Source: Lingula anatina (taxonomy: Eukaryota > Animalia > Brachiopoda). From it: a stretch of 64,000 nucleotides of DNA. Numbering within the stretch: position 1 is the first letter of the stretch; every line of letters starts with the position of its first letter. Below the pieces are notes generated by a model, which ran no database searches, was not told where the DNA came from, and saw only the letters and a program-made list of their open reading frames with translations. Below, piece after piece: positions 3,978 through 57,886 of this stretch. The position numbers and the translations under genes were made by a program. The stretch covers positions 21,164,534 to 21,228,533 of the forward strand of contig CM120644.1 of the NCBI GenBank assembly GCA_051362555.1, in the 5' to 3' direction.

Positions 3978-5800
3978 AACTAGAGGATCAGAGAGGCGAT
4001 ACCGCCTCCGGATATTGTACCACCAGCTGGAGTAAGTGCATTCGAATGGAACCCCCCCCCCAAAAAAAAAGGAACACCACAACCAGTCTTGTCCTTGACA
4101 AGCTCTATGCAATAAACAAGAATTCTCAAAGTATGAAAAAAAATCGAAAAAATATAACATACATGGCCTGTATTTTCCTAACATTGATCACTCCTGTGAT
4201 TTTCTGGACGATAGGCCCATTGGTTTTCCTTGAAATGAGTTATCAGTGTTGCATATATGCTGACAAAAGAGGGGCAACTCTGGGCATATCTCTGCTAGTT
4301 TTGAAGATGTGAGGGGCAAGAAAATATGCAAAGTTCAGTTCATGATGAAAAAGTAGGTCAATTTCAAGGTCACAGTATATGACTTTCTATTCAAGTTCAA
4401 TAGTAACTATGGGCATTTCCTTGCCAATTTTGGAAATGTAAAGGCCAGAAAACATGCAAAGTACAGTTCATCATAAAAAGTAGGTCAAAGGTCAATTTCA
4501 ATGGCACAGTTAGATTGCCAGTATATGACTTCCTATTTAGGTTCAATAGTAACTATGGGCTTATCTCTGCCAGTTTTCAAGATATAAGGGAGAGAAATTT
4601 TTCAAAGTTCAGTTCATGGTGAAAAGTAGGTCAAAGGTCAATTTCAAGGTCACAGTTAGATTGCCAGTATATGACTTCCCACTCAAGCTCAACAGTAACT
4701 ATGGATGTATCTCTGCCAGTTTTAGAGATATAAGGGCTGGAAAATTTGCAAAGTTCAGTTCATGGTGAAACTTAGGTCAAATGTCAATTTCAGGATCACA
4801 GTTAGATTGCCATTATATGACTTCCTATTCAAGTTCAATGGTAACTATGGGCGTATCTTTGCCAGTTTTGGAGATATAAAGATCAGAAAACTTGCAAAGT
4901 GCAGTTCATCATGAAAAGTAGGTCAAAGGTCAATTTCAAGGTCACAGTTAGATTACCAGTATATGACTTCCTATTCAAGTTCAAAAGTAACTATGGGCAT
5001 ATCTCTGCTAATTTTTGAGTATTTCACATTTTATTTTCACCACTGAATTTAGGATGTTGAACTTTTTGATATAGTGCAGTGCCTAAGCAGTATTGAAAAC
5101 AAAAAAATAGACACCACCTCCAGTGTTGCCCTTGACAAGTTCTACAAAATGCATAAAACAAGAGGTCTCTAGCATTAATGGTACCAGAATTAGAGAGAGT
5201 TTTCAGTTTCGGCATCTAATGGCTGCTGCTACCATGAAAATGCAATGATTGACCCAAAACTCACGAAAATGAAAGATGACCCTAAGGGTAACACCTGCCC
5301 GTAATATTATAGGTAGGATCTGTTTAGTTTCTGAAAATCGGCTGAAATAAAAATTTTCTAGCAAAAAATTCCTATTTTTTAGAAAATTTTGGCCTGTTTG
5401 ACCTTGAAATAAAGGTCAAAGGTCGAATCCAAGGGCATATTTGAAATCCTCACATATGACTTTCGTCAGCCATCTGTAGAAATTTTTCCCATAATTCCAT
5501 CGGTTTGGGAGATATTTAGCATTGAATTTTCAAAAATTTTGACAAGGGTGCGTTTCAACGAGCGTCACGCCCAGGTCAATGCACCAACTGAGACAAAAAA
5601 ACCTGTGTGTTCAAGTTGAGATTATATGTGACCTAAATCCAAGAGATAGGGACACAGGTCCTTGTGGTTTAGGAGGAGAAGCGGTAACGGTGACTTGTAT
5701 CCCACGTCATCCTGCGGAGCCGCAGGAGCCGGCGGAGCTGTACGAGACGGGTCGGGACTAAAACCATGAGTACCGCCAGCGTACACGCTGGTGGTACTGA
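3978..5800. mobile_element. Non-autonomous Helentron-type element (HINE/DINE-1-like) with central tandem repeats
   Basis: Starts aactag with a hairpin gaggcg-atac-cgcctc (3993-4008) and ends with hairpin agtaccgccagcgt-ac-acgctggtggtact (5769-5798). It has an internal 146-bp tandem repeat, no clear TSD, and is absent at the paralogous site ~60173. Confidence 0.7.
4270..5025. repeat. ~146-bp tandem repeat, ~5 copies, inside the Helentron-type element
   Basis: tatgactt motif recurs at ~4378, 4524, 4670, 4816 and 4962. Confidence 0.9.
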
Positions 5801-36657: not shown

Positions 36658-39285
36658 ATGTCTACACAGTCATTGGTAAGTTTTATTTATTTTTTTTTTA
36701 TTCAAAACTTAAACCCGGCAGCAAGTTTAATGTAATCCCTCATAGCGCCTTTTTACCGGTACCTGTTCACGAATTTTACGATTCAATAATATTCTAAATG
36801 AATTTCTTATAAATTTCCTGTCATACAACGTTTTGCTGATCTGTCACAAACTACCAAATTGTTCAACTTATGATTTCATTTATTTATTATACATATTGCA
36901 GATGACACCTGATATGGAGATTAAGATAAACAAAGAAGAACAGTGTGCGCGTAAGTTGCGTGTGTGTGTGTGTGTGTGTGACTGTGTGTTTGATAATTGG
37001 GCTAGCAATTCATTACAATGGGCCTAAAACAACTAATTTCTTCATGATATGAAAGTAAGATATCCCATTCTTCATTTCCATTAATTAAGTGGTCAATTTG
37101 AATGCTGTAGTAAAAATATCAAAAAGATATATTGATAGGATCTCTTTCTTTTTTTACTTTGTTTTGAACAGCCAAGGCCAAAGTTAGAATTATTCTAAGA
37201 GCCAACTTGTTGAAAGCTAAACTAGTGGGCAGGGGAACTGCCGTTGGAGGCTGGGACACCCAGCGCGGCATTAACATGCCAAGGACTACCAGCATGGGTG
37301 TCCCGTCTCTTAGGGCAGAGTTTCTCCTGCCCAAGGGCTCAAAAATGGAATGGAAATTCATTAAGCCACAAAATGTAATTATTATACCTTTTTTTTTTTT
37401 TTTTTTACAAAAGTAATGATATAAGGTAAAATAGTTTTCTTTGAAATTTAAAAAGAAAATTTTAAGTCCTGCATGTTTAAGTAATTATTTATACCTTCAT
37501 TTTTCTAGTGTTTTTGATTTATCAGTTATTGTATATATTTATAAACATTTTATTTTTCATTTTAGACATAAACATATTATTCAAGTTATTTATTTATTCA
37601 TTCATCATTCTTTCAGCCTTACCACCCTGGGTCTGGCTGGACATGGGAGCCTGAACCTTTTAGGAACAGGTGCCTCCAGGTGACCACCAAGGACAGCATG
37701 GAAGTGACCTGTACTTGGGGAGAACTGGACATGGAAATAAAAGGTGCTTGATCTTATTATTCTATTTGATATAACCAATGGAAATTTAAGTTGAATTAAC
37801 CTTTCAATTCTGTCATGTATAACATATGGAAATAAAACGTTATTTGATCTCACCATCCTATAAATTATAACCTATGGAAAGCAATAACGAAATGGCCCTT
37901 TCATTCTGCCAAATACATTTTGGACTATATTTTAATTTGTATCATAATTTGTGAATGACAAATAAATGGAAATAAAAGGTGAAATAAACTTTTAATTTTG
38001 TCATGTATAATGTATGGAAAAAAGATTACTTGATCTCATAATCCTATGAAATATAACCTATGGAATGAAATGATAAAATGGTCCTTTAATTCTGTCAAAT
38101 ACATTTTAGGCTATATTTTAATTTATATCACAATTTGTGAATGACAAATGAATGTGACATCTTATTCCAGAGTTGAACTACATGTATGAGCCTGAAGTCC
38201 ACAACAGTGGTAAGTGAATTGCATTATATAATTGTATTGCTCTATTCAAGACAATAATTAAGCAGTTTTAGCAATAAACTTGGTGCATTTTTAAATCTAC
38301 TAGCAAGGAATCATGTAATTAAATTATTTATGACAACAACATCCTGACTCATCGACGGCGCCTGCTGATATCTGGACCTTCAGGGCCTGTTCACAAAGAA
38401 TTTAAAGACCTAGCTAATATGCACTAACTCCATGGAAACTCTCGCTGAATACAATCAGATTAACACACTAACACCCCCCCCTTTGTCTTCAACATCCAGA
38501 ATCACCAGGTTTACTGTATTTTACTCAATGCCATGATGTATTTGATATGTTAAGTTTAGAAAGAACAAATACATGTATTGTGTTTCCTTAGATTTGAATT
38601 CAATTCTCATGTTTCAGCTGATACCAACATAGTAACAATTGTAAAGAATCCTAACACAAAACAGATAGATAAGACAAGCATCTCAGTAAAATAATTATGA
38701 CTTTAATGCACACATGAAACATGCACATGTGCGTGCACACATACACACACACACATGAGCACACACACACTTAAGGCACACACACATGCACACTATGTTG
38801 CACAGTATGTCTGGCTTTTGACAGTCTTAAGAAGATACTTTATCTTCAGAAAAATTGATGCTCTTGCGGTGTTAATCATTGAACATGCTTGGTTTTCCTT
38901 AAAATTCAATTCTGTTTTTTCAGTTGATACCAAAGAAGATAACAATGTAGCAATTGTTAAGATCCTAAGTATTGAGGAGCTAGGTAAGGCTTAATATGCT
39001 TATGCACACACACACATACCGTACACTAACAAGCCCACACACACACATTCATTACACACTGCAAGCATGTTGCTCAAGCAGTCTGGTCTTTAGAATACTT
39101 AAGAAAATTTATTTATTTTTAAGTCAATTAAATCTTTGAATGTGTCTTCAACAAATTGTAATACTGAACCCTAATTGAACATGCACAGGTATGGAATGTT
39201 AAATTTTTATTTGATATCATTTTTTCTTTAGCTGATATCAAAGATACAAAGAGTGTGTCAGATGCTGAGGGCATCAAAGAAAAAG
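36658..39285 (+). CDS. 5' coding micro-exons, probably of the zinc-finger gene: 36658-36675, 36902-36950, 38171-38209, 38924-38983, 39232-39285
   Basis: All have canonical ag/gt boundaries and join in frame (phases 0,1,1,1,1): MSTQSL-MTPDMEIKINKEEQCA-QLNYMYEPEVHNS-VDTKEDNNVAIVKILSIEEL-ADIKDTKSVSDAEGIKEK. Confidence 0.55.
37800..38155. repeat. ~190-bp intronic tandem duplication
   Basis: tgtcatgtataa...ataacctatggaa...aaatacattt...aatttgtgaatgacaaat occurs twice. Confidence 0.8.
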
Positions 39286-41560: not shown

Positions 41561-43818
41561 TGTGAAAGAAAATATTAAATACCCAACTGCAGGAATCATT
41601 TTAGTAAGTAAACAACACTTTTTCATATTGCCCTCTATACAAATAATGCAACTGCTCCTGGTATATGCCTTTAACTGTTTTGATAAATAAATTAATTAAT
41701 TAATTAATTAATCTAACAGGGAGTAGTATTACCTTAGCTGTCAGCTGTGGTACCATAAGGTCTGGAGTTTGTTTGTTACCCTAATCTCCATGACAACAGG
41801 TCCAGATGATCTTCTGCAAACACATGATCAAAGATGGCGTCCAGAGCCTCAGCAACCACCCACAATTTCTGGTCTTTGGTCACTACTTCCACAAGAAATG
41901 AGCCAAATTCTGAAGGAAAAAAAAAACTCAACATCAAAACTGCCAAATATACAGATACCAAACAGCAACCAGAATTTCAACAACATTAGCAAAAGAATTT
42001 TAAAAATTCTAAAAGCAATCAAAGTGTTCACCTTAACAACAGATGAAAGAAGTAAATGTTTTTTACTCTTCACAAGCTCTGTTGGTTTTATGATCATCTG
42101 TACACACTTTCATGTCAGAAAGCTTTCAATATTTTAAATTGTTATCAACTGGACGCAACAGTTCATTTAACACTGGTACTACTGAGTATTTGCTATGAGT
42201 AAACCATGAAAAAAATGTAAAATTCTTTGAAAACACAGACTTTCATGTCTAAAAAAGAAGTAAAATATTTTTTATTGGCCCAAATATTTTGGTTTGGTTT
42301 GGTTTTCTGACCAGCCATCAATACTACTGCGTCTACCATCTTTCATTATTTTAATCTGTCTGATGAACATACCACAAATGAACATTGGCAGTATTTATGA
42401 GTAAAGCAAAATTACATAAAACTTAAATAGGTCATAATATATAATATCAAATAATGTTAGAAAGAAAGAGTATTCCAACTTTAAGACACAGCAAATTCAA
42501 AGACTAAATAACATGACATACATGTACATATCTGGGGTACCTTGTAGGTGTGTTTTCATCTCTGTCTTAATGGTGTGGTGGCTCACTGATATTACAGCTA
42601 TTTTCAACTAGTGTTTCCCTGACCTATTGGTGCACTCACCTGAGAGACAAAACTTACAACGGTAACAAGCTGAGAGGAATAAATTATGTTTGAAACAGAA
42701 AGGCCAGCAAAAATGCAGTCACAAACAGTAAAATAACCTGCACATGCACCCACATTTAAAAAAGTCTATTCTTGCTCCTTTTTGAAAGTAACATGCCTTG
42801 GTGGAGTTAATGGATTAAGTTTTAATACCTATAACTGAACTAATTCTTTTATAAATTTCTTAACCTGAACATGCCCAGTAGTCAGGGGGTGTGTGGAGTC
42901 CATTTTTGCTGGGAAAATGTTCCATCTGAGAAAAATTTTATCTAAGTACACAAAGATTGGATGGCATAAGGTCCATTTTTTTTTTTTTTTTCAGAAAAAG
43001 AACCTCACTTTTGAAACTGCTGGCTGCTGAAGGGTTTCATAAATTGAATTAATTGAATGACTTATCACATCATCTACATGTACCGTACAGAACCAGCCTG
43101 GCATGTGTGACAAATACAAACTAACTGATAAAATCACTTCTTGTCTTTTAACTAGCTAGATGTTAGCTTGATGGTGTCATGTTACATGTTTACCAATGCT
43201 AAGTGAAGTAATAACAGATAATTATATGCAGTGGGTTGTGCAGATAACATCTTTTAATTATGGCACCTGAAGTATTGGAGAGAAATGACTTCAACCAATC
43301 AGATATGTCCACTGTAACCAGCAGTTACATCGTCCAATAGAATGACTGGATTCAAGATTTTAAACAGGGGGTTCCTAATACAACTTTATGCATTGCTCAG
43401 TACAAAAACTGGGTGCATTGGTAATGTTAACAACAAGTTCATACAGAATCCTAATGGATATTCTTATAGTGCTCTGATACTTGAATTGTGAACACAATTA
43501 CAGTATTGGAAAGGACAGATCAAGCCTCAATAAGTCTTATACCTTATCCAAGTGACTGACTGGCTCACAGCAAAATGTAAGACAGTAGTGTAACAATGGC
43601 TGACAGGAGTTGTCTGGAAAAGGAACGACAAAAAAAGGAAATTATGTGAAAAGAAGACTTGGAATCAGGACTCAATGTAACTTGTGAAAAGAATCTTTCA
43701 GTGATGAATCATCTCATGAAATTCAAGAAAATAAGTATACTGGACAGAAACCTTACAGAGTAGATTCTGTGACAAGACTTTTATATCACCAATTAAGTTC
43801 TTACAGCACTCAGTAAAA

Positions 43819-45117
43819 ATGTGCACAGGAGAGAGACCTTACAAGTGTAGATTCTGTGACAAGACTTTTACTCAAAAAGGCAATTGCACTGTGCATGAAA
43901 GAATTCATACTGGAGACAAACCTTACAAGTGTAGATTCTGTGACAAAACTTTTACTCAAAAAGGCCACTGTGCTGAGCATGAAAGAATTCATACCGGAGA
44001 CAAACCTTACAAGTGTAGATTCTGTGACAAAGCTTATAAAGACAAAACTTCTTGCATAAAGCATGAAAAAATTCACACAGGAGAGAGACCTTACAAGTGT
44101 AGATTCTGTGGCAAAACTTATAAAGACAAAACTACTTGCATAAAGCATGAAAGAATTCACACAGGAGAGAGACCTTACAAGTGTAGATTCTGTGACAAAA
44201 CTTTTACTCAAAAAGGCCATTGCACTGAGCATGAAAGAATTCATACTGGAGAGAGACCTAACAAGTGTAGATTCTGTTACAAAACTTTTACAGACAAATC
44301 AAATTGCATATCTCATGAGAGAATTCACACAGGTGAGAAACCTTACAAGTGCAGATTTTGTGACAAAACTTATAAAGACAAAACTTCTTGCATAAGGCAT
44401 GAAAGAATTCACACAGGAGAGAAACCTTACAAGTGCAGATTCTGTGACAAAACTTATAAAGACAAAACTGCTTGCATAAAGCATGAAAGAATTCACACAG
44501 GAGAGAAACCTTACAAGTGTAGATTCTGTGACAAAACTTTTACTCGAAAAGTCAATTGCACTGTGCACGAAAGAATTCATACTGGAGAGAAACCTTACAA
44601 GTGTAAATTCTGTGACAAAACTTTTACAGCCAAAACAAATTGCACATCTCATGAGAGAATTCACACAGGAGAGAGACCTTACAAGTGTAGATTCTGTGAC
44701 AAATTTTTTATAGACAAAAAATCTTGCATATGTCATGAGAGAATTCACACAGGAGAGAAACCCTACAAGTGCAGATTCTGTGACAAATTTTTTAAAGGCA
44801 AAAATTCTTGCATGTTTCATGAGAGAATTCACACAGGAGAGAAACCTTACAAGTGTAGATTCTGTGACAAAACTTTTACTCAAAATGGCCATTGCACTGA
44901 GCATGAAAGAATTCATACTGGAGAGAGACCTTACAAGTGCAGATTCTGTGACAAAACTTTTAAAGACATAACTTCTTGCATATATCATCAGAGAATTCAC
45001 ACAGGAGAGAGACCTTACAAGTGTAGATTCTGTGACAAAACTTTTACACAAAAAAAATGTTGTAACTTTCATGAAAAAAATCACACTGGAGACAAACATA
45101 TCTGTAATTTTTTTTAG
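43819..45117 (+). CDS. C2H2 zinc-finger protein, 15 tandem 28-aa fingers in one exon
   Basis: 432-aa ORF of YKCRFCDKxF/Yxxxxx-C-xxHERIH fingers with TGE(K/R)P linkers and 84-bp periodicity. Confidence 0.93.
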   Translation: MCTGERPYKCRFCDKTFTQKGNCTVHERIHTGDKPYKCRFCDKTFTQKGHCAEHERIHTGDKPYKCRFCDKAYKDKTSCIKHEKIHTGERPYKCRFCGKTYKDKTTCIKHERIHTGERPYKCRFCDKTFTQKGHCTEHERIHTGERPNKCRFCYKTFTDKSNCISHERIHTGEKPYKCRFCDKTYKDKTSCIRHERIHTGEKPYKCRFCDKTYKDKTACIKHERIHTGEKPYKCRFCDKTFTRKVNCTVHERIHTGEKPYKCKFCDKTFTAKTNCTSHERIHTGERPYKCRFCDKFFIDKKSCICHERIHTGEKPYKCRFCDKFFKGKNSCMFHERIHTGEKPYKCRFCDKTFTQNGHCTEHERIHTGERPYKCRFCDKTFKDITSCIYHQRIHTGERPYKCRFCDKTFTQKKCCNFHEKNHTGDKHICNFF

Positions 45118-47460: not shown

Positions 47461-49493
47461 ACATGCCGGCTCCTACTACGTGTCATGGAATAGACCTCAC
47501 GGATCACGCTAAATAATAGAATGTTTGACGCATCTCGGGTAAATAAAAAGTGGTTTTCATGGGTTACAAATACACCCTAATTAAAGTTTGAAAATGCATA
47601 ATAACAGTGAATGATTCTTAAACAAATTGACTGGTTAGTGCTGAGGGAACGCATTCGCTCCCTGCTCAGTGTGACGCAGTTGGTTGTGAAAGGGTTAAGC
47701 GCCCCCCCCTCCTCCCGTCTCGCCCCTATCCCGGCTTCTCACCCTGAGCGTCAGCGATAACTTGAAACAAACATCTAAACTACATGTATGGCATACCCTT
47801 GTCGTTTCCAGTTACTTGAAACGGCAAGGGTTAATTGCGATTAAGATCTGACGTTCAGGGTGCGGCTCCTACACCTGTGTATCAAAACTATCCTTGGCTG
47901 GTTCATCTTCTGCCGGGAGTTGAACAGTTAACGTGGTCAATAAATTGTTAGGGAGAGACAGATGGCATAGAGAATTATCTTGTTATCTGCAAAGTGCTAC
48001 ACAGTGAAACTGGAAAAGTGTGCTATTTTTACACTCTTCTCAAAGATAATAATAGACTCTGATTATAGCAGCCCCACGCTCTCTTTTTATTTTGCGGTTC
48101 AATGGATACCTCTCTCTCTCGTCCGCCTCTCCCTAAAATGTTCCACTTCAGAAAAAATCAATAATGCTATGGGAGAATTGCACAGGCAATTGACCTACAT
48201 TCTCCACTGCAGTTATTGGCGCTAGTTTAACAATGTTATGACTTGGACGTGATAGCGTGATTCACACCTGTGACATGAAAGTTTATAATTTATATAAATA
48301 AATTAATAAACAGGGCGTGTCGATCAAATAATTGGAAAGATGTAAGTGTAAAGAGACATTGCTTTTTATGAAAATAATATAAACAACTTTACACAACCCA
48401 AAACCAGGAAAAATGCATTTTTCTCTTATATGCAAATTAGATTGCCTGTAGTAATATAAGGCTGTCCGGAAGTGATGTCCACATCAGAGATTTCAAATAG
48501 TGGTGATATTGATGACTAAAGCTATCTTAATTTTTATTATTTGATAAAAAATAATATATTTAGGCAACCGTATGTAATTTTCGCCTCGAAATAAAACAAA
48601 TTTATTTTTATTATGAATCAATGCTGGACCAACCCTTCGGAAGAATTTTGTAACAGCTAGAAGGCTGAGAAGGGCTCCTGGACGAGAGCCCCCGGTACAT
48701 ACCCCCCCCCCCCCCCCCTCTCTGACTTTTTATGGGCATACAGATTACTCGTATTCCAATGCTTTCTTACTTCATTTCATGATTTAAGTGTTTCCAAATG
48801 TTTGAGGTACTTATATAAAAAAGTAGTTCAATAACTTCAGGGTGTTGGAGAGAGATTTATTATTATTTTATTTTTTTTTTGGGGGGGGGAGGTAAAGGGG
48901 CTTGGAAGGTTTACAAGGTTGACGCTAGGAAACTGGTTAATTGCAACGCTTATGGTTCTCATCTATACTCATCCAGTATCGACTGAAAGAAAATACTAGA
49001 CTGCCGCCTTGCCCCAACCTCCCGTAGCTCACGGCACGGTTGAAAAGTTCAAAACTCTCCACATCAATTTGACATGCACCGCTCTTTAAATTCTATTTTT
49101 TCATACACAAAATGACACAAACTGATTCTACAAAATTAACGCATTTTTAATTTTTTTACTTTATGGAGATGCCAATTTCGAATAAAGTTATGTATTCACA
49201 GGTGTGTGCGGGACGTCATCTGTGTATTGTAAGGCTGACAGTAAAACCCTTTACAACTGAACAGTTTGGCTCGACAATAATCAACCGCTACCTACCTGGC
49301 AAATGTTTCTTATTTCGTTTGGTTTGTACATAGAATAATAATTATTTATCAGAAAGGTAACTCACACATACGCTTTTCGAATACTTCATGCTGTTTCCGG
49401 CGCGACTGCATGTCTAGAGAGGCAACATTTTTGATAATCAACACGAGTATACATGAAAATGAAAAAAAAAAGAAAAACAGCATTTCTCTGTCA

Positions 49494-49494
<1 letters not shown>

Positions 49495-49534
<40 letters not shown>
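49495..49534. repeat. (CA)n microsatellite
   Basis: Direct reading. Confidence 0.95.
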
Positions 49535-49539
<5 letters not shown>

Positions 49540-49765
49540 AATGGATTAAGTTAATAAGTCAGAAAAGCAAGTAAGACAAACGCCCTCAAACATAAAACTT
49601 TTTACGCTTAATTTTATAGACAAAGCAAAGAAAATTTACTGAACTGTATTGAGATGTCGTGTCCTGAAGTCTTATTCTTGGGGAAGTTGCTGATGAAGAG
49701 AATACGTTTTGTGATTCGCGCGCATGGTTTACTTTTTCTGGTAGAGATCAGTATAAAAATAGACT

Positions 49766-49788
49766 TGCATCGGCCGGGAATCGAACCC
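49766..49788 (-). tRNA. tRNA-Gly: tRNA-Gly(GCC), 3' fragment (B box/T-loop and acceptor strand) of an interrupted gene
   Basis: Minus strand reads GGGTTCGATTCCCGGCCGATGCA, followed 6 nt later by TTTTT (Pol III terminator, plus-strand aaaaa at 49755-49759). Confidence 0.88.
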
Positions 49789-49790
49789 AC

Positions 49791-50107
49791 TTAGGGCTCA
49801 ACTCACCCTGTTGAGAAATCTCAAGGCTGATTACATGGCTGATAATTGTTTGCATAACTGCTCAGGCACTGCCACTTAGCAGGTCCAGTCTAAGTCTGTG
49901 TGACAGCAATCAAGACAGTTAATTACTCTGACTTCAATCACTTGCTCTTCTGTGACAGATAAAAAAGCCTTAGACTGGTTGCGTAACAAGCAGTTATCAC
50001 ATCGTTGTGAAGCTCAGCTCATGCAGAGCAAGTACAAAGCCTTTGGCGCGCGCGCAGAGATAATTGTTTCCACATGGGATTCCTCAACAGGGTGAGTTGA
50101 TCCCTAA
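49791..50107. repeat. Left-end fold-back module with 29-bp inverted repeats (MITE-like, TTA/TAA boundaries)
   Basis: ttagggctcaactcaccctgttgagaaat vs attcctcaacagggtgagttgatccctaa (2 mismatches). Confidence 0.85.
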
Positions 50108-50181
50108 ATGACCATCTATCTAGCTAGAGACATATCTGTGAATATCTGTAAAAAATCTATCACTCGCCCTGGTAGAGGGTA
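50105..50181 (+). repeat. 77-bp direct repeat, left copy
   Basis: taaatgaccatctatctagctagagacat…ctcgccctggtagagggta; 75/77 identical to 57763-57839. Confidence 0.95.
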
Positions 50182-51018
50182 TTTAAGACCTATCTTGCGC
50201 GTAGGTTCATTTAAGGGAGACATAACCATTTTTTCTTGGTCAAGCCCAGAAGTTTTACGAGATAATCAAGGCATGTTTTCCGTTCGAGGATGTCCTGTGC
50301 CAGGATAATTTTGCGTGGGCGTTACACTCCTTGCCTCCCATTGTACTCAGCACTCTATACATTTCGACCAATCAGAGAGCGGCAAACGGGCACCACCCTC
50401 AAGTGTTGCGTCTCCTGCTTATATATAACTCCTTGGTCAAGCGTGGCATCAAGTCCCTTGCCATTATGGACGTGGTCCTGTGCGAGTTGTTCACAGCTTA
50501 AATGCATGTATTTAATTTAAATCAATTAGACAGTTGTTGACAATTGTTCAAGTCGAAGTTTTAGACATGATAATTAATTATGAGGCTTAGTACTTTTTGG
50601 TGGTGGTGCAGTAAGCCCAAGTTGTTATGGTCATCTGGACATACATGTACTAAGTATCGGTGATAATTGCAAAATTCATCACTTTATGAGTATGACAATA
50701 TGTCACTTTATTGACTACTTGGATGAGGTACTTCTTGGACATTTCGTTTTCCTGTATGTATTGCTGTGGTGTTTTTCAAAGAATGATTGCTCTATTTTGT
50801 TTTATTTCATCATCATCAGGAGTGACACGAGACTGAAGCAACTAAAATAAATTGTCAATGACAAAAAAATCACTAGACCACAATAAAATGTTCCTTACGG
50901 CTATCCTATTTCAGAAATTATCTGACAAACACGTTGTTTTTTGTCCGTTGTTGCTTTCAGCCACTTTTTAAACCTGTTCATTTATCATATAAATTAAATT
51001 AATTTTTTATCATACCAG

Positions 51019-51495
51019 GCTCCACCAGCGGTATGGGTTAGGAAACTACGTCGATTCGGCCGCCTTTTCGACCTTGACGGGGACGGCGTAGTTACCAAAG
51101 ACGAAGTCGTTCAAAAGACCGTAGAGGAAGCGGGAGACGCCCTTGACGGGAAAATGGCCGCAGAAGTCGCCGACGTTGAGGCCGAGGCATGGAGCACAGT
51201 GTTCGCTATGCCGGGGGCACGACAGTACAGCAGTGATCTCAGGAAGAGGAAGCTGAGAATGTGGGCACGAAGCGTCTTCCAAGTGGTCGACACAAACCAC
51301 GACTGTAAGCTGAGTGCAGCGGAACACGAGTTCACCTTTAAGATTTTCTTTCATGTTCCCCAGGCCGCTATTGCAGCATCCTTCGATGGAACTGATTTTA
51401 ACAACAATGACGAACTCGAAAAGATCGAATTTGTCAATGCAATTGTAGGATATTTCTGTAATAAATCACAGGATTCTGCACTGTTTGGGCTGTAG
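51019..51495 (+). CDS. SCP/aequorin-family EF-hand protein copy A (EF exon open; exon 1 eroded, possibly a pseudogene)
   Basis: Acceptor tcataccag, then APPAVWVRKLRRFGRLFDLDGDGVVTKDE…YFCNKSQDSALFGL*. A remnant FIDYLDEVLLGH at 50707-50742 resembles FKDLLDEKLFGQ of copy B exon 1. Confidence 0.75.
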   Translation, partial: APPAVWVRKLRRFGRLFDLDGDGVVTKDEVVQKTVEEAGDALDGKMAAEVADVEAEAWSTVFAMPGARQYSSDLRKRKLRMWARSVFQVVDTNHDCKLSAAEHEFTFKIFFHVPQAAIAASFDGTDFNNNDELEKIEFVNAIVGYFCNKSQDSALFGL

Positions 51496-52108
51496 GTAAA
51501 AAATAAAATCAGGCCTCACCTTTCTCTTGGACATGAGAGATTTAAAAGAAAAAATCTATCCAATTACTTACCACAACATGACAATTAATTGTGATCTTAC
51601 CGTATATGAACAGTAAGACTACATGTATATAGCCCAGTTATCACTGCGAGGACAAAAATACTTACTTCTAAGTAGTTCTTACAAGAACATGTAATTCAGA
51701 TTTTGAGTACACGTACTTACAACGAGTCGCCAACCGGCTGAGAAAATTCATCTTAATAAAGTTATTCTAAAATGTTTCTGTTCCATTATTATGTTAACAC
51801 CGTCCAATAAAACAAGTCAAAGCCTTAGCCCGAATTTATTGTGTAATAGCAGCTGTGTCTCAGTTTCCATAATAAGTTTGGAAATAGTAAAAAACTTGGT
51901 TTCCATCACGGAACAAATGTTTTTGGCTTCAAGACTTCTTGGATGTCTTTTTCATTACAGTCACCTCGAAATATTTTTAAAAAGATGAGGGGGAACTTGC
52001 TGAAATGTTTAGTGTGTTTGGGAGATGAAAGTTTACTGCTTGTTATCTGAGGGTCATGTGTAAGATAAGTGTGCGCACTTAACATGTTTTACCCTCTTTA
52101 AATAAAGT

Positions 52109-52153
52109 TTATTATTATTATTATTATTATTATTATTGTTATTATTATTATTA
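52109..52153. repeat. (TTA)n microsatellite
   Basis: Direct reading. Confidence 0.9.
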
Positions 52154-53002
52154 TCTACCTTGGGATATTTTATAACTCATAACATTCTACTGCTTCTTCA
52201 AATATTAAAGCGCGCATTCTCAATATATCTAACTTTCTACTTAGATGGATCCAACCCTGCGGGGACTCTTGCTGAATGCAATCAGATTAACTGAATGACA
52301 CGCCTCCTTGGGTACCTAGGGGTTGATTTTAAGTTAGAACTTCTGTGCGCTTTCGGTAGCACCAAAAACGAAGTGCACATGACAGTTGATCACCTCCTCA
52401 ACGAGTACCTGCAGAATTGTTTCTATATACGTAGAACGATAGTTTCGTTGGGAAAGCACCCTAAGTGTATGGATCACTACCCCTTACCTTGCACGACCTC
52501 TATCCGCAGCTGACTTAATGTATGTGTTACACGCGTGACACAACTGTGAAAACATGAGGATTACCTTAGATTTTCAACAGTAAAATAATAGCCGGAGGGC
52601 ACTCATGAATTTCAATTGTGAAAAAACAGTAAATAATACCTATGAAAATAATAACTGACCCCAACTGCACGACTCTCACATTTGTGGGTGTCAGTTCGTG
52701 CGTCATTTTTTAAGGATTGTCAAAATTATAACACTCAAAATAAGTGGGACAATAAAAGTGGGACTGACATTTGCTCGGGGGCAACGTGGGTAATAACAGC
52801 GACGTCAAGTAAGAGACATCTCTAATTTTCATCTTCCAAAAATATTTTTTCTAGCATGACATCGATGGGTATTAAAGTGATCTTCCATCGTTTACACCGC
52901 AACATTTGGTCTCGTCTACCCTTGTGTGCGGACGTTCCAGTTTGTTCCTTTCCACCACATAGCGGGTAAACCAAGCAGTTACCAGTAAAGCAATCCAGAA
53001 AG

Positions 53003-54317
53003 ATGGCCAACTTCAAGCCGTTTCTTCTCCTGCTGGCATTGGGCACTTTCCTGTTCTTTACGGAGGCAAAACCGAGGCTGACTCGAGAGCTTGGCTCTCT
53101 GTATGACGATATCCTTACGAGAGAATTTAAAGATCTTCTCGACGAGAAGCTGTTTGGCCAAAGAATGGTAAGTCATATGGTTAACAGCGTCCAAATCTCA
53201 GTTCTATTGCCGACTAAATCAATATACTTTCGTTAGTTAAATGTTGCCTTGTATACACCGTGTTTCTTAATACGTCCCTCTATGATCGGCTAAATCCTGG
53301 TGATTGAAGTCATCTGTTGTTTGATCTATTAGACCTTGGACGAATAAAACGTTATTTGTCCAATGTTAGACTTGGCGCATTAGTTGGTAGAGTTAGTGTC
53401 CTTGACGAGCGTCGCATCGAGTCACTAAATTATTCCGGCTGACAGGTTTGGGCTTGTGGTCGTGATTTTCTACAAATCACTTAGACGATTGTTAAAAATT
53501 CACGAACTGGAAGGCATCTTATACATATGAAAAACACTTTTAGACTTATGATGTTAATACAGCAGTTGCTTAAAATCTAAAGTTTGAAGAGATCGGTGAC
53601 AAGTGCAATGGGAAATTTTTACTATTCGAAATTCTTAACACCGCTAGTTACTCTGCTTTATAAAAATGCTCAATATGGTAATTTCAGTTCAGAAATGACC
53701 AGAGAATGACAGGAAAACGAGTTATTATCTTTTTCAATGGTTCATTTCAGCCACTTTTTAAGCCCGCTGTATTATCAAATTAATTAACTTTTTTATCATA
53801 CCAGGCGCCATCAGATGTATGGCCTAGGAAACTACGTAGATTCGCCCGCAACTTTGACCTTGACGGCAACGGCGTAGTGACCAAAGACGAAGTCGTTGGA
53901 AAGACAGTAGAGGAAGCAAAGAACTCACTAGACACGGAAACGGCTGCCGAAGTGGCCGACACTGTAGCCGAGGCATGGAAGGCCGTGTTCGGCATGCCTG
54001 AAAATGGACTGACGATCAGTTCCGATGATATTGTAAAGACAGCCGACATGGTATGTGGCAATGAAGACAGGAAGAGGGAACTCAGAATATGGGCAAGAAA
54101 CGTCTTTGAAGAGGCCGACACTAACCACAACGCCGAACTTAGTCGATCAGAGCACGGGCTCTCGTTTAGGATGCTCCATGTTCCCCCTGCTGGTCTCGCA
54201 GCATCCTTTGTCGCCGCGGATAGAAACAAAAATGGCTCAGTCGAAAAGGAGGAATTTGTGGATGCAGTTGTAGATTATTTTTGTAATAAATCGCAGGATT
54301 CCCCTTTGTTCGGGTAG
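53003..54317 (+). CDS. Secreted SCP/aequorin/calerythrin-like EF-hand calcium-binding protein copy B, 225 aa; exons 53003-53167 and 53805-54317
   Basis: Exon 1 MANFKPFLLLLALGTFLFFTEA-KPRL…FGQRM|gtaagt is a signal peptide plus pro-region. A phase-0 intron leads to tcataccag|APSDVWPRKLRRF. EF loops are DLDGNGVVTKDE, DTNHNAELSRSE and DRNKNGSVEKEE; the C-terminus is SPLFG. Confidence 0.88.
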
Positions 54318-55834
54318 TAGGTTTCAGTTTAAACGGATGATATACGGAAGGCTGTATAGCCTGCTTCTAGACGGTAGAAACAACTACTTTCTAGTAGTTC
54401 TCAACAGAACATTTAACGGAAATTTCAAGTAACACATCAAAATGGTCTACTTTCGTAAAAAAAAATCACCTTTAAATAAATGTCTCAAAAATGTTTTTTA
54501 CTTTGTTATATGTACCTGTTTAACCCGATCTTTCATACTTTCATTCTTTCATAACCCGATTCATTCAGTTACTGTGTAGAAGTTGCCCTCAGTTTTCAAA
54601 ACGTTAGAATATTAAGATAAACTTTAATTGTACGACCGCAGCCCATAAAATCGCCTATCTAAACTTGACTTTTGAAATTGTGACTGTGTGTATTATAAAT
54701 ACGTAAATACACCGAGCTCCCCTTTTATCCATTTTCTATTTACTTGTTATCTATTCTCTCATAATGTCTTTTCATAATGTTTATTAGTGGACTGCTGTCC
54801 AGTACGCAAATATTCCAGTGCTGTCTTGTATTGCGCGGTTCTAAAAAGGTTACCTTTAAAACTGTGGCCTCGAGCTATTTTACTTATTTTTTTTATTTAT
54901 CTAAAAATAAATCGGGTCTCCCGCCTTTGTCTCCTTCGCATGTTTTAAATAAAAAATAAGTCAGGGATGAAGCGGCCGCTGGCGGGCATTACTGGTTGTC
55001 GGTTGGCTACTCATCCATGCTGCCTTAGTTGAACCCCCGCAGACGTGGATTATGACAGTGCCACTTGTTGTAGATACAAAATTGGTAATTTTTGGTAAAA
55101 ATGACTCCCCATGTTGTGGATGGTGTCTAGGGAGATATATGATGTAAAACAACCGCAAATAAAACATTTAATTCAATTGGATGAATTAACGATAGAAATG
55201 TCGGTATTTTACCTGCGTTGTGCATTGTTTCTAAGTTGTTATATGATGGTAAAAACCCGTAAATAATATAATTAAATTCAAAACACTACGAGTGATGTCT
55301 CTCGCCTGGTATCGTGGACCAAGAGCACTGTACAGGGACTCCCGCTTGTCCAAAGGGGCGTAGGATGGGTGGACTAGTTGTATACTCTTGTCTCCTGTCA
55401 TTTTAGGCCATTATGAAAGAAAAATGGACGGCAAATGAAATATGAGCAAAAGGTAAAAGGCCAGAGACGAAGAATGGCACTGCTGTCGGTCTGTTAATTA
55501 TCATTTATGGAATATAAATATGAGAACTGGGCTGCCCTCTATCGGGAAAGAGAAAAATATTGTATGCATTAAAGAATAAAGTATTTAATAGTTATCACGT
55601 TTTTTTAATTGCATGGTGGCAATGGCTACCCAAGAAGGCTGACAAGATGATAACCAGCACCAGTTACTCTTCAGATAAACTTTTATCAACGGTTTTCATT
55701 GTCTTAAGAGTCTTAATTGGGATGTAAAAGTTTTACAGGGCATGAATATGACTGTGGGGATTTTCGAACGCATGAAGACGACTTCTAGAGTACATTTTGA
55801 TGGGAATATCCCATGGAGTGAGTGGCCTTTCAAG

Positions 55835-56332
55835 TCAGTTTCCACAATAGTTGCTCAGGACCTTAATTTTCTTTATTTAATTCGACTGGGGGAAAGAAAT
55901 TTAATGTTACAAGATAACAAAATAAATACATTTATATCTGCTAGAGGGATTTTTTCAACGTATAGGCGATTTACTGAACAAGTTTTGTTTTGTAAAAACT
56001 GCATTAACAAGTAGTTTCTTATAACTAAGAAATACCATCGGTAAATAGAGCCCATATCCACGTAGTGAATATTAATCTTAATTAATCAGTTTCCATCACA
56101 CAGTTGCTCACCTGGACCTTGATTAATTTAATTTAATTTATTTGACTGGGGGAAAAATTCAATGTTACTAGAGAACAACAAAGTAATATATCTGCTAGAC
56201 AGATTTTATTACTGAGAGATTTTTTCAACGTATAGGCTATTTACTAACATTAACAAGTAGTTTCTTATTACTAGTAACTGTAGTAGTAGGCAAAACACTA
56301 ACGTATATCATCGGTAAAAAAGTCCATATCCA
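55835..56332. repeat. ~250-bp tandem duplication 3' of EF-hand copy C
   Basis: tcagtttcca…gttgctca…gactgggggaaa…tatatctgctaga…ttttttcaacgtatagg…cattaacaagtagtttcttat occurs twice. Confidence 0.8.
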
Positions 56333-56418
56333 TGTTGTAAAAACGAATCCGATCTCTGCCTGTTGAAATTTCTTAAGCGCAGAAGCAGGCCAAGTCCGAT
56401 TTTATAATTTCATTTTAC

Positions 56419-56934
56419 CTACAGCCCGAAGAATGGAGAATCTTTAGACTTATTGCAGAAATAGTCTAAAACTGCACTGACAAATTCAACCTTTTCCACT
56501 TTGCCGTTCACGTTTGCATCAGCTCCGGTGAAAGACGCCTTGAGGACAGTCGGGGGAACGTGGAACATGCCAAAAGTCAGCCGGTATTCTGCTGAACTAA
56601 GCTCAATGTTGTGGTCAGAGTCGGACTCTTCAAAGACGCTTCTCGCCCAAATTCTGAGTACCCTCTTCCTGTCTTCACTGCTGCATAATTTACCGGCTCT
56701 CTTTACGAGATCAGCAGAATCGATCCTCAGTCCTTCCTCGGGAACAGCGAACACGGCTTTCCATGCCTCGGTTACAGTGTCGGCAACTTCGGCAGCCGTT
56801 CCCTTGTCAAAAGCGCTGTTTGCTTCCTGCAACGTCTCCCCGACGACTTCAGCTTTGCTCACTATGCCGTCCCCGTTTAGGTCGAAGAGGCGGGCGAATC
56901 GCCGTAGTTTCGTAGCATATATAGCTGATGGCCC
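56419..56934 (-). CDS. SCP/aequorin-family EF-hand protein copy C (EF exon open; exon 1 not intact nearby)
   Basis: Acceptor tcataccag, then GPSAIYATKLRRFARLFDLNGDGIVSKAE…DANVNGKVEKVE…YFCNKSKDSPFFGL*. Confidence 0.8.
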   Translation of the reverse strand, partial: GPSAIYATKLRRFARLFDLNGDGIVSKAEVVGETLQEANSAFDKGTAAEVADTVTEAWKAVFAVPEEGLRIDSADLVKRAGKLCSSEDRKRVLRIWARSVFEESDSDHNIELSSAEYRLTFGMFHVPPTVLKASFTGADANVNGKVEKVEFVSAVLDYFCNKSKDSPFFGL

Positions 56935-57569
56935 CTGGTATGATGAAAAAATAGAATTCCATAAAAAGGATAGGTTTTAAAAAGTAAGAGTAGTCACAGA
57001 TTATGACGTGTACTCTAAAATACCAGACGAGCTTTGAAATTTGCCACAACGAACAAGTTGTTAAAGTCCAGTAATTTTCTTTGTCCAGTCACAGCCACAT
57101 GACCATAACAGCCTGCCAACGTCCCTGGTTTCAGATCAGATCGCCGGTTTCTGTTAGTGCGTGGGCGACACATATATATATACTCGTACAGGGCGTAGCC
57201 CACAACATAACATTTGTTCCAGCCAACCCTTGTGTGCGGAAGTTCCATCCTGCTCCCGTCTCCCAGTTGACAAGCACATACTAGTAAACCTATCCAGTAC
57301 CAGGGGCGGAGCTAGAAATATTTTCTGACAGTCTTCCAAATTATCTTTGTTGATCCATCCTCCATTTTGACCGTCTTCCGACAGAAAAAAATTAGATACC
57401 CGTCAATGTAAACTTATTCGCTGTTTCTCTTACAGTTGGCGTTTTGCACTTGCCTTTTAGCGGACGTAAAACCCCGAAAACCATAGTTTTATTGAGAACG
57501 GAGCTTGGTCTTTTTTCACCTGTTCTCTGTTTTCTTTTTGTACTTGTATATATATTTCTTTTGTCCAGT

Positions 57570-57620
<51 letters not shown>

Positions 57621-57762
57621 GAGTCTCGCTTAGGATTGCGAAACGTTATAACTTTGAAATTAATCGACCCGATTAGCTGTGCCGCAGATAAAAAAAATTA
57701 TTAATTAAATTGCAACTATCAGCCATGTAATCAGCCTTGAGATTTCTCAACATGTCAGAGGA

Positions 57763-57839
57763 TAAATGACCATCTATCTAGCTAGAGACATGTCTGTGAA
57801 TATCTGTAAGAAATCTATCACTCGCCCTGGTAGAGGGTA
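57763..57839 (+). repeat. 77-bp direct repeat, right copy, abutting the tRNA 5' fragment
   Basis: 75/77 identical to 50105-50181. Confidence 0.95.
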
Positions 57840-57886
57840 GGCCGCCCGCGTGGCAGGCGAGCATTCTACCACTGAACCACCGATGC
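57840..57886 (-). tRNA. tRNA-Gly: tRNA-Gly(GCC), 5' fragment (acceptor strand, D arm/A box, anticodon arm, variable loop) of an interrupted gene
   Basis: Minus strand reads GCATCGGTGGTTCAGTGGTAGAATGCTCGCCTGCCACGCGGGCGGCC with anticodon GCC. Its GCATCGG pairs with CCGATGC of the 49766-49788 fragment. Confidence 0.92.

What the first reader, a model, noticed from the sequence alone, without database searches (positions are those of the whole stretch)
49766..57886. A tRNA-Gly gene split by an 8-kb gene-carrying island: candidate tRNA-targeted cargo element in an animal
Seen: 57840-57886 (47 nt) and 49766-49788 (23 nt) on the minus strand rejoin into a 71-nt tRNA-Gly(GCC), short by one T-stem base, with its TTTTT terminator. 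Neither half appears decayed. The break is in the 5' strand of the T-stem just before the B box. There is no multi-base TSD: either 1 bp is lost or the single A at both junctions is a 1-bp duplication. The 8051 bp between them has structured ends and three protein-coding paralogues but no visible transposase or recombinase. Known: tRNA genes are classic integration sites for prokaryotic islands, and eukaryotic Dada transposons also insert inside small-RNA genes but with 6-7-bp TSDs. Inference: a site-specific, non-autonomous element that ferries host-type genes using multicopy tRNA genes as safe harbours.
Basis: partly seen in the sequence, partly recalled or inferred. Interest (0 to 1): 0.92.

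Follow-up and report, generated by a model that had tools for sequence, protein, structure and literature searches.

The report
Gene-capturing transposon splitting a brachiopod tRNA
In a Lingula (lamp shell) genome an 8-kb insert bounded by the ends of an abundant repeat family and carrying a partial copy of a host calcium-binding gene cluster splits a glycine tRNA gene; it is likely a gene-capturing transposon that hit the tRNA by chance, not a dedicated tRNA-targeting gene ferry.

Summary
The split is real. The halves rejoin into a tRNA-Gly(GCC) lacking one T-stem base, with no target duplication, and an independent contig spans the low-coordinate junction. The host is Lingula. The 8,051-bp insert has asymmetric ends: a terminal 40-46-bp inverted repeat at one end, and its partner plus a 77-bp module at the other. 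A second module inside defines a nested 393-bp mini-element. The cargo copies a sarcoplasmic-calcium-binding-protein-like cluster annotated on other scaffolds (92-93% aa identity to the donor genes). Only one gene is complete: one lacks the exon 1 to which donor transcripts splice, one has a deletion and no recognisable exon 1, and a fourth is a remnant. tRNA targeting is not supported. The 77-bp end module is extremely abundant and meets heterogeneous AT-rich flanks in 83 contigs of one run. Best reading: a non-autonomous composite transposon, most like Helitron2 rolling-circle elements, that captured host DNA between two family ends. The enzyme is unidentified, and Helitron2's T|T target and strong hairpins are not shown. 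A tRNA-specific low-copy subfamily is not excluded, because no genome was available and tRNA-like reads are filtered.

The parts
57840..57886 (-). 5' part of tRNA-Gly(GCC) gene (positions 1-49)
49766..49788 (-). 3' part of the tRNA gene (positions 51-73, B box), followed by a T5 terminator
   Evidence: junction spanned by a contig of X2
49789..57839 (.). 8,051-bp insert, no TSD, one tRNA base missing or replaced
49789..49848 (+). terminal arm of the asymmetric inverted repeat; pairs with both subterminal arms
   Evidence: (I5 98%, I6 89%)
49789..50181 (+). nested 393-bp mini-element (terminal arm, interior, subterminal arm, 77-bp module); repetitive family
   Evidence: bin depth 17,474 / 1,528 / 12,557 at 49748-50059
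50105..50181 (+). internal copy of the 77-bp end module with a weak 4-bp terminal hairpin; very abundant, many unrelated flanks
   Evidence: (loose ends before 50106 and behind 50181)
57713..57752 (-). subterminal inverted arm of the outer end (40 bp, 98% to 49809-49848; contigs of X1, X2 and X7 carry small insertions next to it)
   Evidence: table 4
57763..57839 (+). outer copy of the 77-bp end module, abutting the tRNA 5' part
   Evidence: D5, 97%
51019..51495 (+). cargo gene 1: EF-hand (SCP-like) coding exon, 14 residues shorter than paralogues, no signal-type exon 1 found upstream; CCAAT (50368) and TATA-like (50422) motifs upstream
   Evidence: another copy in X7 has extra letters at 51214
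53003..54317 (+). cargo gene 2: complete two-exon SCP-like gene (53003-53167, 53805-54317), 225 aa, hydrophobic N-terminus; 99.1% to P0003, 93% to donor-type P0001/P0004
56419..56934 (-). cargo gene 3: exon 2 only, 92% to P0002/P0005; its exon 1 is absent from the window
   Evidence: (290 RNA reads go on at 56935 into a sequence encoding the end of P0002 exon 1)
57202..57474 (+). remnant of a fourth paralogue: promoter-like stretch (73 of 98 nt identical to gene 2's) and decayed start of exon 1 (46 of 61 nt), interrupted by a repeat
   Evidence: 0 of 300 shuffles reach either score
57301..57415 (.). very abundant repeat nested in the cargo
   Evidence: depth and loose ends
52242..52308 (.). 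second abundant repeat nested in the cargo
   Evidence: depth and loose ends

Best explanation
The insert is likely a non-autonomous composite transposon of an abundant Lingula repeat family that picked up about 7.5 kb of a host calcium-binding gene cluster between two family ends and, probably by chance, landed in one tRNA-Gly gene. Steps: (1) shown: family ends bound the insert and the cargo copies a cluster annotated on other scaffolds; (2) inferred: two family members sat in or entered the donor cluster, and a transposase supplied in trans used the terminal arm of one and the 77-bp module of the other, bypassing the inner module, which truncated gene 3 inside intron 1; (3) inferred: the chemistry is single-strand, rolling-circle (HUH, Helitron2-like), which explains asymmetric inverted repeats, doubled termini and no TSD; (4) inferred: the copy was tolerated because tRNA-Gly genes are redundant, and it is old enough to have drifted 7-8% in protein from the donor.
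For: Ends and nested duplicate end. End module abundant with unrelated AT-rich flanks. Donor cluster: P0001/P0005/P0006 share a longest contig of 246,165 and P0004/P0002/P0082 one of 329,602 (the P0001/P0004 and P0002/P0005 pairs are 98.7% alike, read as two haplotypes), whereas the cargo-type P0003 (99.1% to gene 2) is annotated at two other loci. Donor-like contigs 8-13% diverged lie under the cargo at about twice single-haplotype depth in X1 and X7 (table 8). Gene 3 lacks exon 1. Amino-acid divergence (15 of 225; 13-14 of 170) lies at the low end of a rough neutral simulation for 4-5% DNA change (95% range 11-33 and 8-26), so selection on the cargo is not required. Helitron2/HLE2 elements have asymmetric inverted repeats, no TSD, multiple termini and composite transposition (PMC3627910, PMC4067079, PMC5148889, PMC11417382). 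With an assumed 500-1000 tRNA genes in 400 Mb, a family of 300-3000 copies gives 0.03-0.5 chance hits (illustrative).
Against: No autonomous partner was seen; no genome was available. The inverted repeats (36-46 bp) are longer than the 8-18 nt described for HLE2 and lie 71-87 bp from the end (described: 20-60). The terminal hairpins fold no better than shuffles (z -0.5 to -1.7 for the short ends, +0.3 and +0.6 for the whole module). The target is GC-rich, not T|T, and the consensus next letter in loose ends behind 50181 is G. Annotated Helitrons are only 0.004% of the Lingula assembly, though about 93% of its repeats were unannotated (PMC4595640 supplement). Whether family ends flank the donor cluster was not seen. 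The outer end belongs to a low-depth variant (401 / 83 / 40 at 57752) whose target preference is unknown. The two P0003 loci may be alleles, so mobility of the whole 8-kb unit is unproven.
Confidence: 0.45

Rival explanations
1. A tRNA-targeted cargo element: a low-copy subfamily with the long 40-46-bp arms integrates specifically at the CCC/GGG centre of the tRNA-Gly T-stem, for example by a recombinase with a 1-bp core, while short relatives have lost specificity.
For: Precise break in an otherwise intact tRNA with a single T at both junctions. The long-arm end is low-depth and distinct from the abundant mini-element. tRNA-like reads are filtered, so tRNA-flanked copies would be hidden.
Against: The shared end module has at least 83 contigs with non-tRNA flanks in one run. 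The inner end is not beside a tRNA. There is only one observed event. No similarity between a joined-end sequence and the target is visible.
Confidence: 0.13
2. An untargeted tyrosine- or serine-recombinase element (Crypton-, DIRS- or IS607-like) moving as a circle with a 1-bp crossover core; the single A/T at both junctions is the core.
For: No TSD; the same single base at both junctions; asymmetric ends.
Against: No 4-6-bp terminal direct repeats as described for Cryptons (PMC3212892). The internal end copy is a direct copy of the module, not a DIRS-type complementary region. No recombinase frame.
Confidence: 0.17
3. A cut-and-paste (DDE) MITE family plus an independent ~80-bp mini-repeat that inserted beside its ends; the cargo arrived by gap filling or template switching (Pack-TIR type), and the target duplication was lost or very short.
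For: Long, near-perfect inverted arms (98%). The module occurs with other inner neighbours in 55 and 46 contigs (loose ends before 50106). Pack-TIRs are known in animals (PMC8277862 abstract).
Against: The module sits outside the arm at both copies in the same orientation and reaches the tRNA break exactly. No TSD flanks either the arm pair or the whole insert.
Confidence: 0.15
4. Not transposition of the whole unit: a break in the tRNA gene was repaired by copying a donor segment whose ends happened to be repeat copies (templated insertion or segmental duplication).
For: One base is lost. Cargo copies in different runs differ by about 0-2%, in line with the reported 1.6% heterozygosity, so one old event can explain them.
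Against: Both breakpoints fall exactly at complementary family ends, which a random repair would not predict.
Confidence: 0.1

Closest known systems
Helitron2 / Helentron / HLE2 non-autonomous elements (HINE, DINE-1, FoHeli, HelenXT233; PMC3627910, PMC4067079, PMC5148889, PMC11417382; passages and named sections read)
   Same: Asymmetric inverted repeats (one terminal, one subterminal), small terminal hairpin, no TSD, abundant non-autonomous copies, two alternative termini in direct repeat, capture by end bypass or composite transposition.
   Different: Arms of 36-46 bp instead of 8-18; a 71-87-bp outer module; GC-rich target instead of T|T; weak hairpins; no RepHel seen.
Dada DNA transposons (PMC3706591, PMC8869645; passages read)
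   Same: Inserted inside a multicopy tRNA gene in an animal.
   Different: Dada makes 6-7-bp TSDs, lacks TIRs, encodes a DDE enzyme, targets tRNA positions 8-13 or the anticodon stem, and is target-specific; none of these holds here.
Pack-TIRs of animals (PMC8277862; abstract only)
   Same: Non-autonomous DNA element ends enclosing a copied piece of host gene DNA.
   Different: Ends here are asymmetric, with no TSD; the cargo is a multi-gene 7.5-kb block.
Cryptons (PMC3212892; passages read) and fungal Starships (search listing only; features recalled)
   Same: No classical TSD; Starships carry host-like genes.
   Different: No 4-6-bp direct repeats, no tyrosine recombinase gene, mostly broken cargo.

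Membership tests
Helitron2/HLE2 | Asymmetric inverted repeats, one terminal and one subterminal | tested here: met
Helitron2/HLE2 | Arm length 8-18 nt, 20-60 bp from the end | tested here: not met
   36-46 bp arms, 71-87 bp from the end
Helitron2/HLE2 | Terminal hairpin(s) | tested here: inconclusive
   4-6-bp stems are present but z -0.5 to -1.7
Helitron2/HLE2 | No target-site duplication | tested here: met
Helitron2/HLE2 | Insertion between T and T | tested here: inconclusive
   The insert begins and ends with T on the minus strand and the inner end is followed by TTT, but the tRNA target is GC-rich and the loose-end consensus starts with G
Helitron2/HLE2 | RepHel-encoding partner with the same ends | not testable with these tools
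   no genome held; no such frame in the window
Dada | 6-7-bp TSD | tested here: not met
Dada | Family confined to one site in small-RNA genes | tested here: not met
   the end module has many non-tRNA flanks
Dada | No TIRs, only 7-9-bp subterminal repeats | tested here: not met
   40-bp arms
Crypton | 4-6-bp terminal direct repeats, no TIRs | tested here: not met
Crypton | Tyrosine recombinase in an autonomous partner | not testable with these tools
DIRS (features recalled) | Internal region complementary to both termini | tested here: not met
   the internal copy of the 77-bp module is direct
Pack-TIR / Pack-MULE | Captured host gene sequence with a parent locus elsewhere | tested here: met
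Pack-TIR / Pack-MULE | TIRs at both termini plus TSD (recalled) | tested here: not met

The most novel reading that the evidence does not exclude
An undescribed animal DNA-transposon group with long asymmetric inverted repeats and a 77-bp end module, one subfamily of which integrates without duplication at the centre of the tRNA-Gly T-stem and ferries multi-gene host cargo: an animal counterpart of tRNA-anchored genomic islands.
Probability: 0.13. Interest if true: 0.85.

Novelty: new variant of a known kind. Interest (0 to 1): 0.42.

Why it matters
As it stands, it is a clear case of transposon-mediated duplication of a multi-gene host block in a brachiopod, a phylum whose repeats were largely unannotated (about 7% annotated, PMC4595640 supplement). 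It exposes an abundant repeat family whose end structure fits no described superfamily exactly, so its autonomous partner is worth finding. If a subfamily proved tRNA-specific it would be a second tRNA-inserting DNA-transposon type in animals beside Dada (none other turned up in the searches) and a cargo carrier with a safe harbour.

Tried and rejected
No whole genome is held, so copies, empty alleles and an autonomous partner could not be searched. End motifs found nothing in metagenome contigs, GTDB genomes or paper text. In viral contigs one motif gave 0 hits and the other one 19-nt match with no further similarity, treated as chance. No RNA holder was listed by index. Earlier-findings look-ups by sequence, by place and by Lingula words were empty; one search failed on word count. 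The HELIANO supplement has no Lingula entry. Paper searches for this end structure or for tRNA-inserting non-Dada elements gave 0 papers or only Dada, Helentron, FoHeli and unrelated papers; subscription papers, Repbase and bioRxiv supplements were not searchable, so the family may already be named there. Assembly artefact was rejected for the low-coordinate junction. A tRNA-derived SINE pair was rejected because the halves are complementary, undecayed and followed by a terminator. DIRS, Dada and Crypton membership were rejected as listed. Low depth at 49436-49747 in X7 was not used, because the tool says dips are no finding. The copy-number arithmetic rests on summed contig depths that the tool says are not copy numbers, so it is order-of-magnitude only. 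No structure prediction was run; the cargo family was clear from sequence.
Full report
Observation. Joined in silico they fold as tRNA-Gly(gcc): 70 nt without fill, 71 nt if one terminal T of the insert is kept. The unjoined window has 0 ARAGORN genes and one sub-threshold Rfam tRNA hit. The break is between positions 49 and 51, a T5 terminator follows, and no repeat of 2 bp or more flanks the 8,051-bp insert. A 308-nt contig of run X2 matches 49548-49820 with 0 differences and crosses the low-coordinate junction. The other junction was not examined in reads.

Host. The cargo proteins' only close relatives are Lingula anatina proteins (2 hits among 99 candidates; 99.1% to P0003). No genome is held.

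Ends. On the + strand the insert starts with an arm (49789-49848) whose inverse occurs twice: at 50075-50110 (36 nt, 89%) and at 57713-57752 (40 nt, 98%). Each inverse arm is followed by the same 77-bp module (97%), which ends in a 4-bp stem. So there is one terminal arm and two alternative far ends: a 393-bp mini-element nested in an 8-kb one. The hairpins fold no better than shuffles.

Abundance and flanks. I laid 4 of the 21 listed runs on 48500-57839: three DNA contig sets and one RNA run, of which about 6% was read. Long, near-identical contigs have depths of about 36-52 (X1), 5-9 (X2) and 44-60 (X7). The bin with the module has 70,370 / 7,534 / 57,890 and the mini-element interior 17,474 / 1,528 / 12,557. 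These are summed depths, not copy numbers, but they imply hundreds of copies or more. Outside the module 83 contigs of X7 and 171 reads of X13 go on into AT-rich sequence with agreement 0.37-0.42, unlike a tRNA. Inside it, 55 and 46 contigs (X1, X2) go on into other sequence, so several subfamilies share the module. Only 24 of 1,492 loose-end rows were shown, none for 49789. Human-like reads are dropped, so tRNA-flanked copies are under-counted. The outer-end variant is much rarer (depth 401 / 83 / 40 at 57752).

Cargo. These are EF-hand proteins closest to sarcoplasmic calcium-binding protein among solved structures (1q80, E 5.5e-12); in the wider search 2 of 77 hits are above 50% identity, both Lingula. 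Two RefSeq contigs each carry three paralogues (P0001/P0005/P0006 and P0004/P0002/P0082), which I read as two haplotypes of a donor cluster. Gene 2 is complete, 93% identical to the donor type and 99% to P0003, which is annotated at two further loci, allelic or not. Gene 3 is exon 2 only: 290 RNA reads leave the window at its acceptor and continue into the end of P0002's exon 1, which is not in the window. Gene 1 is 14 residues short, has no close annotated match (best 63.5%) and no recognisable exon 1. A fourth promoter and exon-1 remnant lies at 57202-57474. Donor-like contigs 8-13% diverged underlie the non-coding cargo. All 10 RNA reads at three diagnostic sites of gene 2 exon 1 differ from the window, so expression of the cargo copy is not shown. 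Protein divergence is compatible with a rough neutral expectation, at its low end. No mobile-element domain was found in 93 frames scanned.

Mechanism. Shown: family ends at both breakpoints, a copied and truncated host block, no TSD. Inferred: a transposase acting in trans used the terminal arm and the outer module, bypassed the inner module, and carried the donor DNA between them. The closest described architecture is Helitron2/HLE2: asymmetric inverted repeats and hairpins (PMC3627910 passages); 12-15-bp subterminal repeats, T-rich targets and composite capture (PMC4067079 passages); two alternative termini in direct repeat (PMC11417382 sections 18 and 24); multiple termini and circles (PMC5148889 passages and section 6). 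It works like such an element but fails the arm-length feature, and target and hairpin features are inconclusive, so I do not file it as a member. Dada (PMC8869645 and PMC3706591 passages) and Crypton (PMC3212892 and PMC13565253 passages) features are not met. Pack-TIRs show that gene capture by DNA elements is known in animals (PMC8277862 abstract). In the published Lingula assembly annotated Helitrons are 0.004% and only about 7% of repeats were annotated (PMC4595640 passages and supplement).

Targeting. One event cannot show specificity. With assumed tRNA gene numbers, a family of this size hits a tRNA gene by chance with expectation 0.03-0.5, and the shared end demonstrably uses other sites. 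The rarer long-arm subfamily remains untested, and that is the novel case (0.13).

Verdict. A real split tRNA and a real gene-capturing insert; tRNA-targeted ferrying is unproven and disfavoured. New variant of a known kind, interest 0.42.

Noticed in passing
window 7464-33738: 26-kb satellite array, period 193 bp, about 136 copies, with apparent higher-order structure.
   Followed up: no
window 4373-5008: 146-bp tandem repeat, 4.4 copies.
   Followed up: no
window 43735-45117 (+): 460-aa open frame of tandem C2H2 zinc fingers.
   Followed up: partly
window 41779-41976 (-) and 37168-37413 (+): Pfam hits to SYO1-like TPR repeats (E 5e-10) and a CBM20 starch-binding domain (E 4e-5); likely exons of host genes.
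   Followed up: no
window 57076-57090 and 57555-57570: 15-16-bp direct repeat flanking the 460-bp piece that holds the fourth-paralogue remnant, followed by about 48 A's; looks like a secondary insertion with a target duplication in gene 3's intron.
   Followed up: partly
window 57301-57415, 52242-52308, about 48500-48720: Three further abundant repeat families; the first has the highest depth in the stretch.
   Followed up: no
window 49136-49253: A second, diverged flank haplotype (62-bp skip, several substitutions) in X1 and X7; X7 shows only that one there yet holds window-like cargo contigs, which would fit the unit lying at another site or on that haplotype.
   Followed up: no
P0001-P0005, P0082: Lingula SCP-like proteins carry a 55-62-residue N-terminal exon with a hydrophobic, signal-peptide-like start (my reading, no predictor run), unusual for normally cytosolic SCPs; no relatives above 50% identity outside Lingula were found.
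   Followed up: partly
window 55835-56349: Tandem duplication of about 250-270 bp downstream of gene 3 (69%); 25 RNA reads join 55983 to 56248.
   Followed up: no
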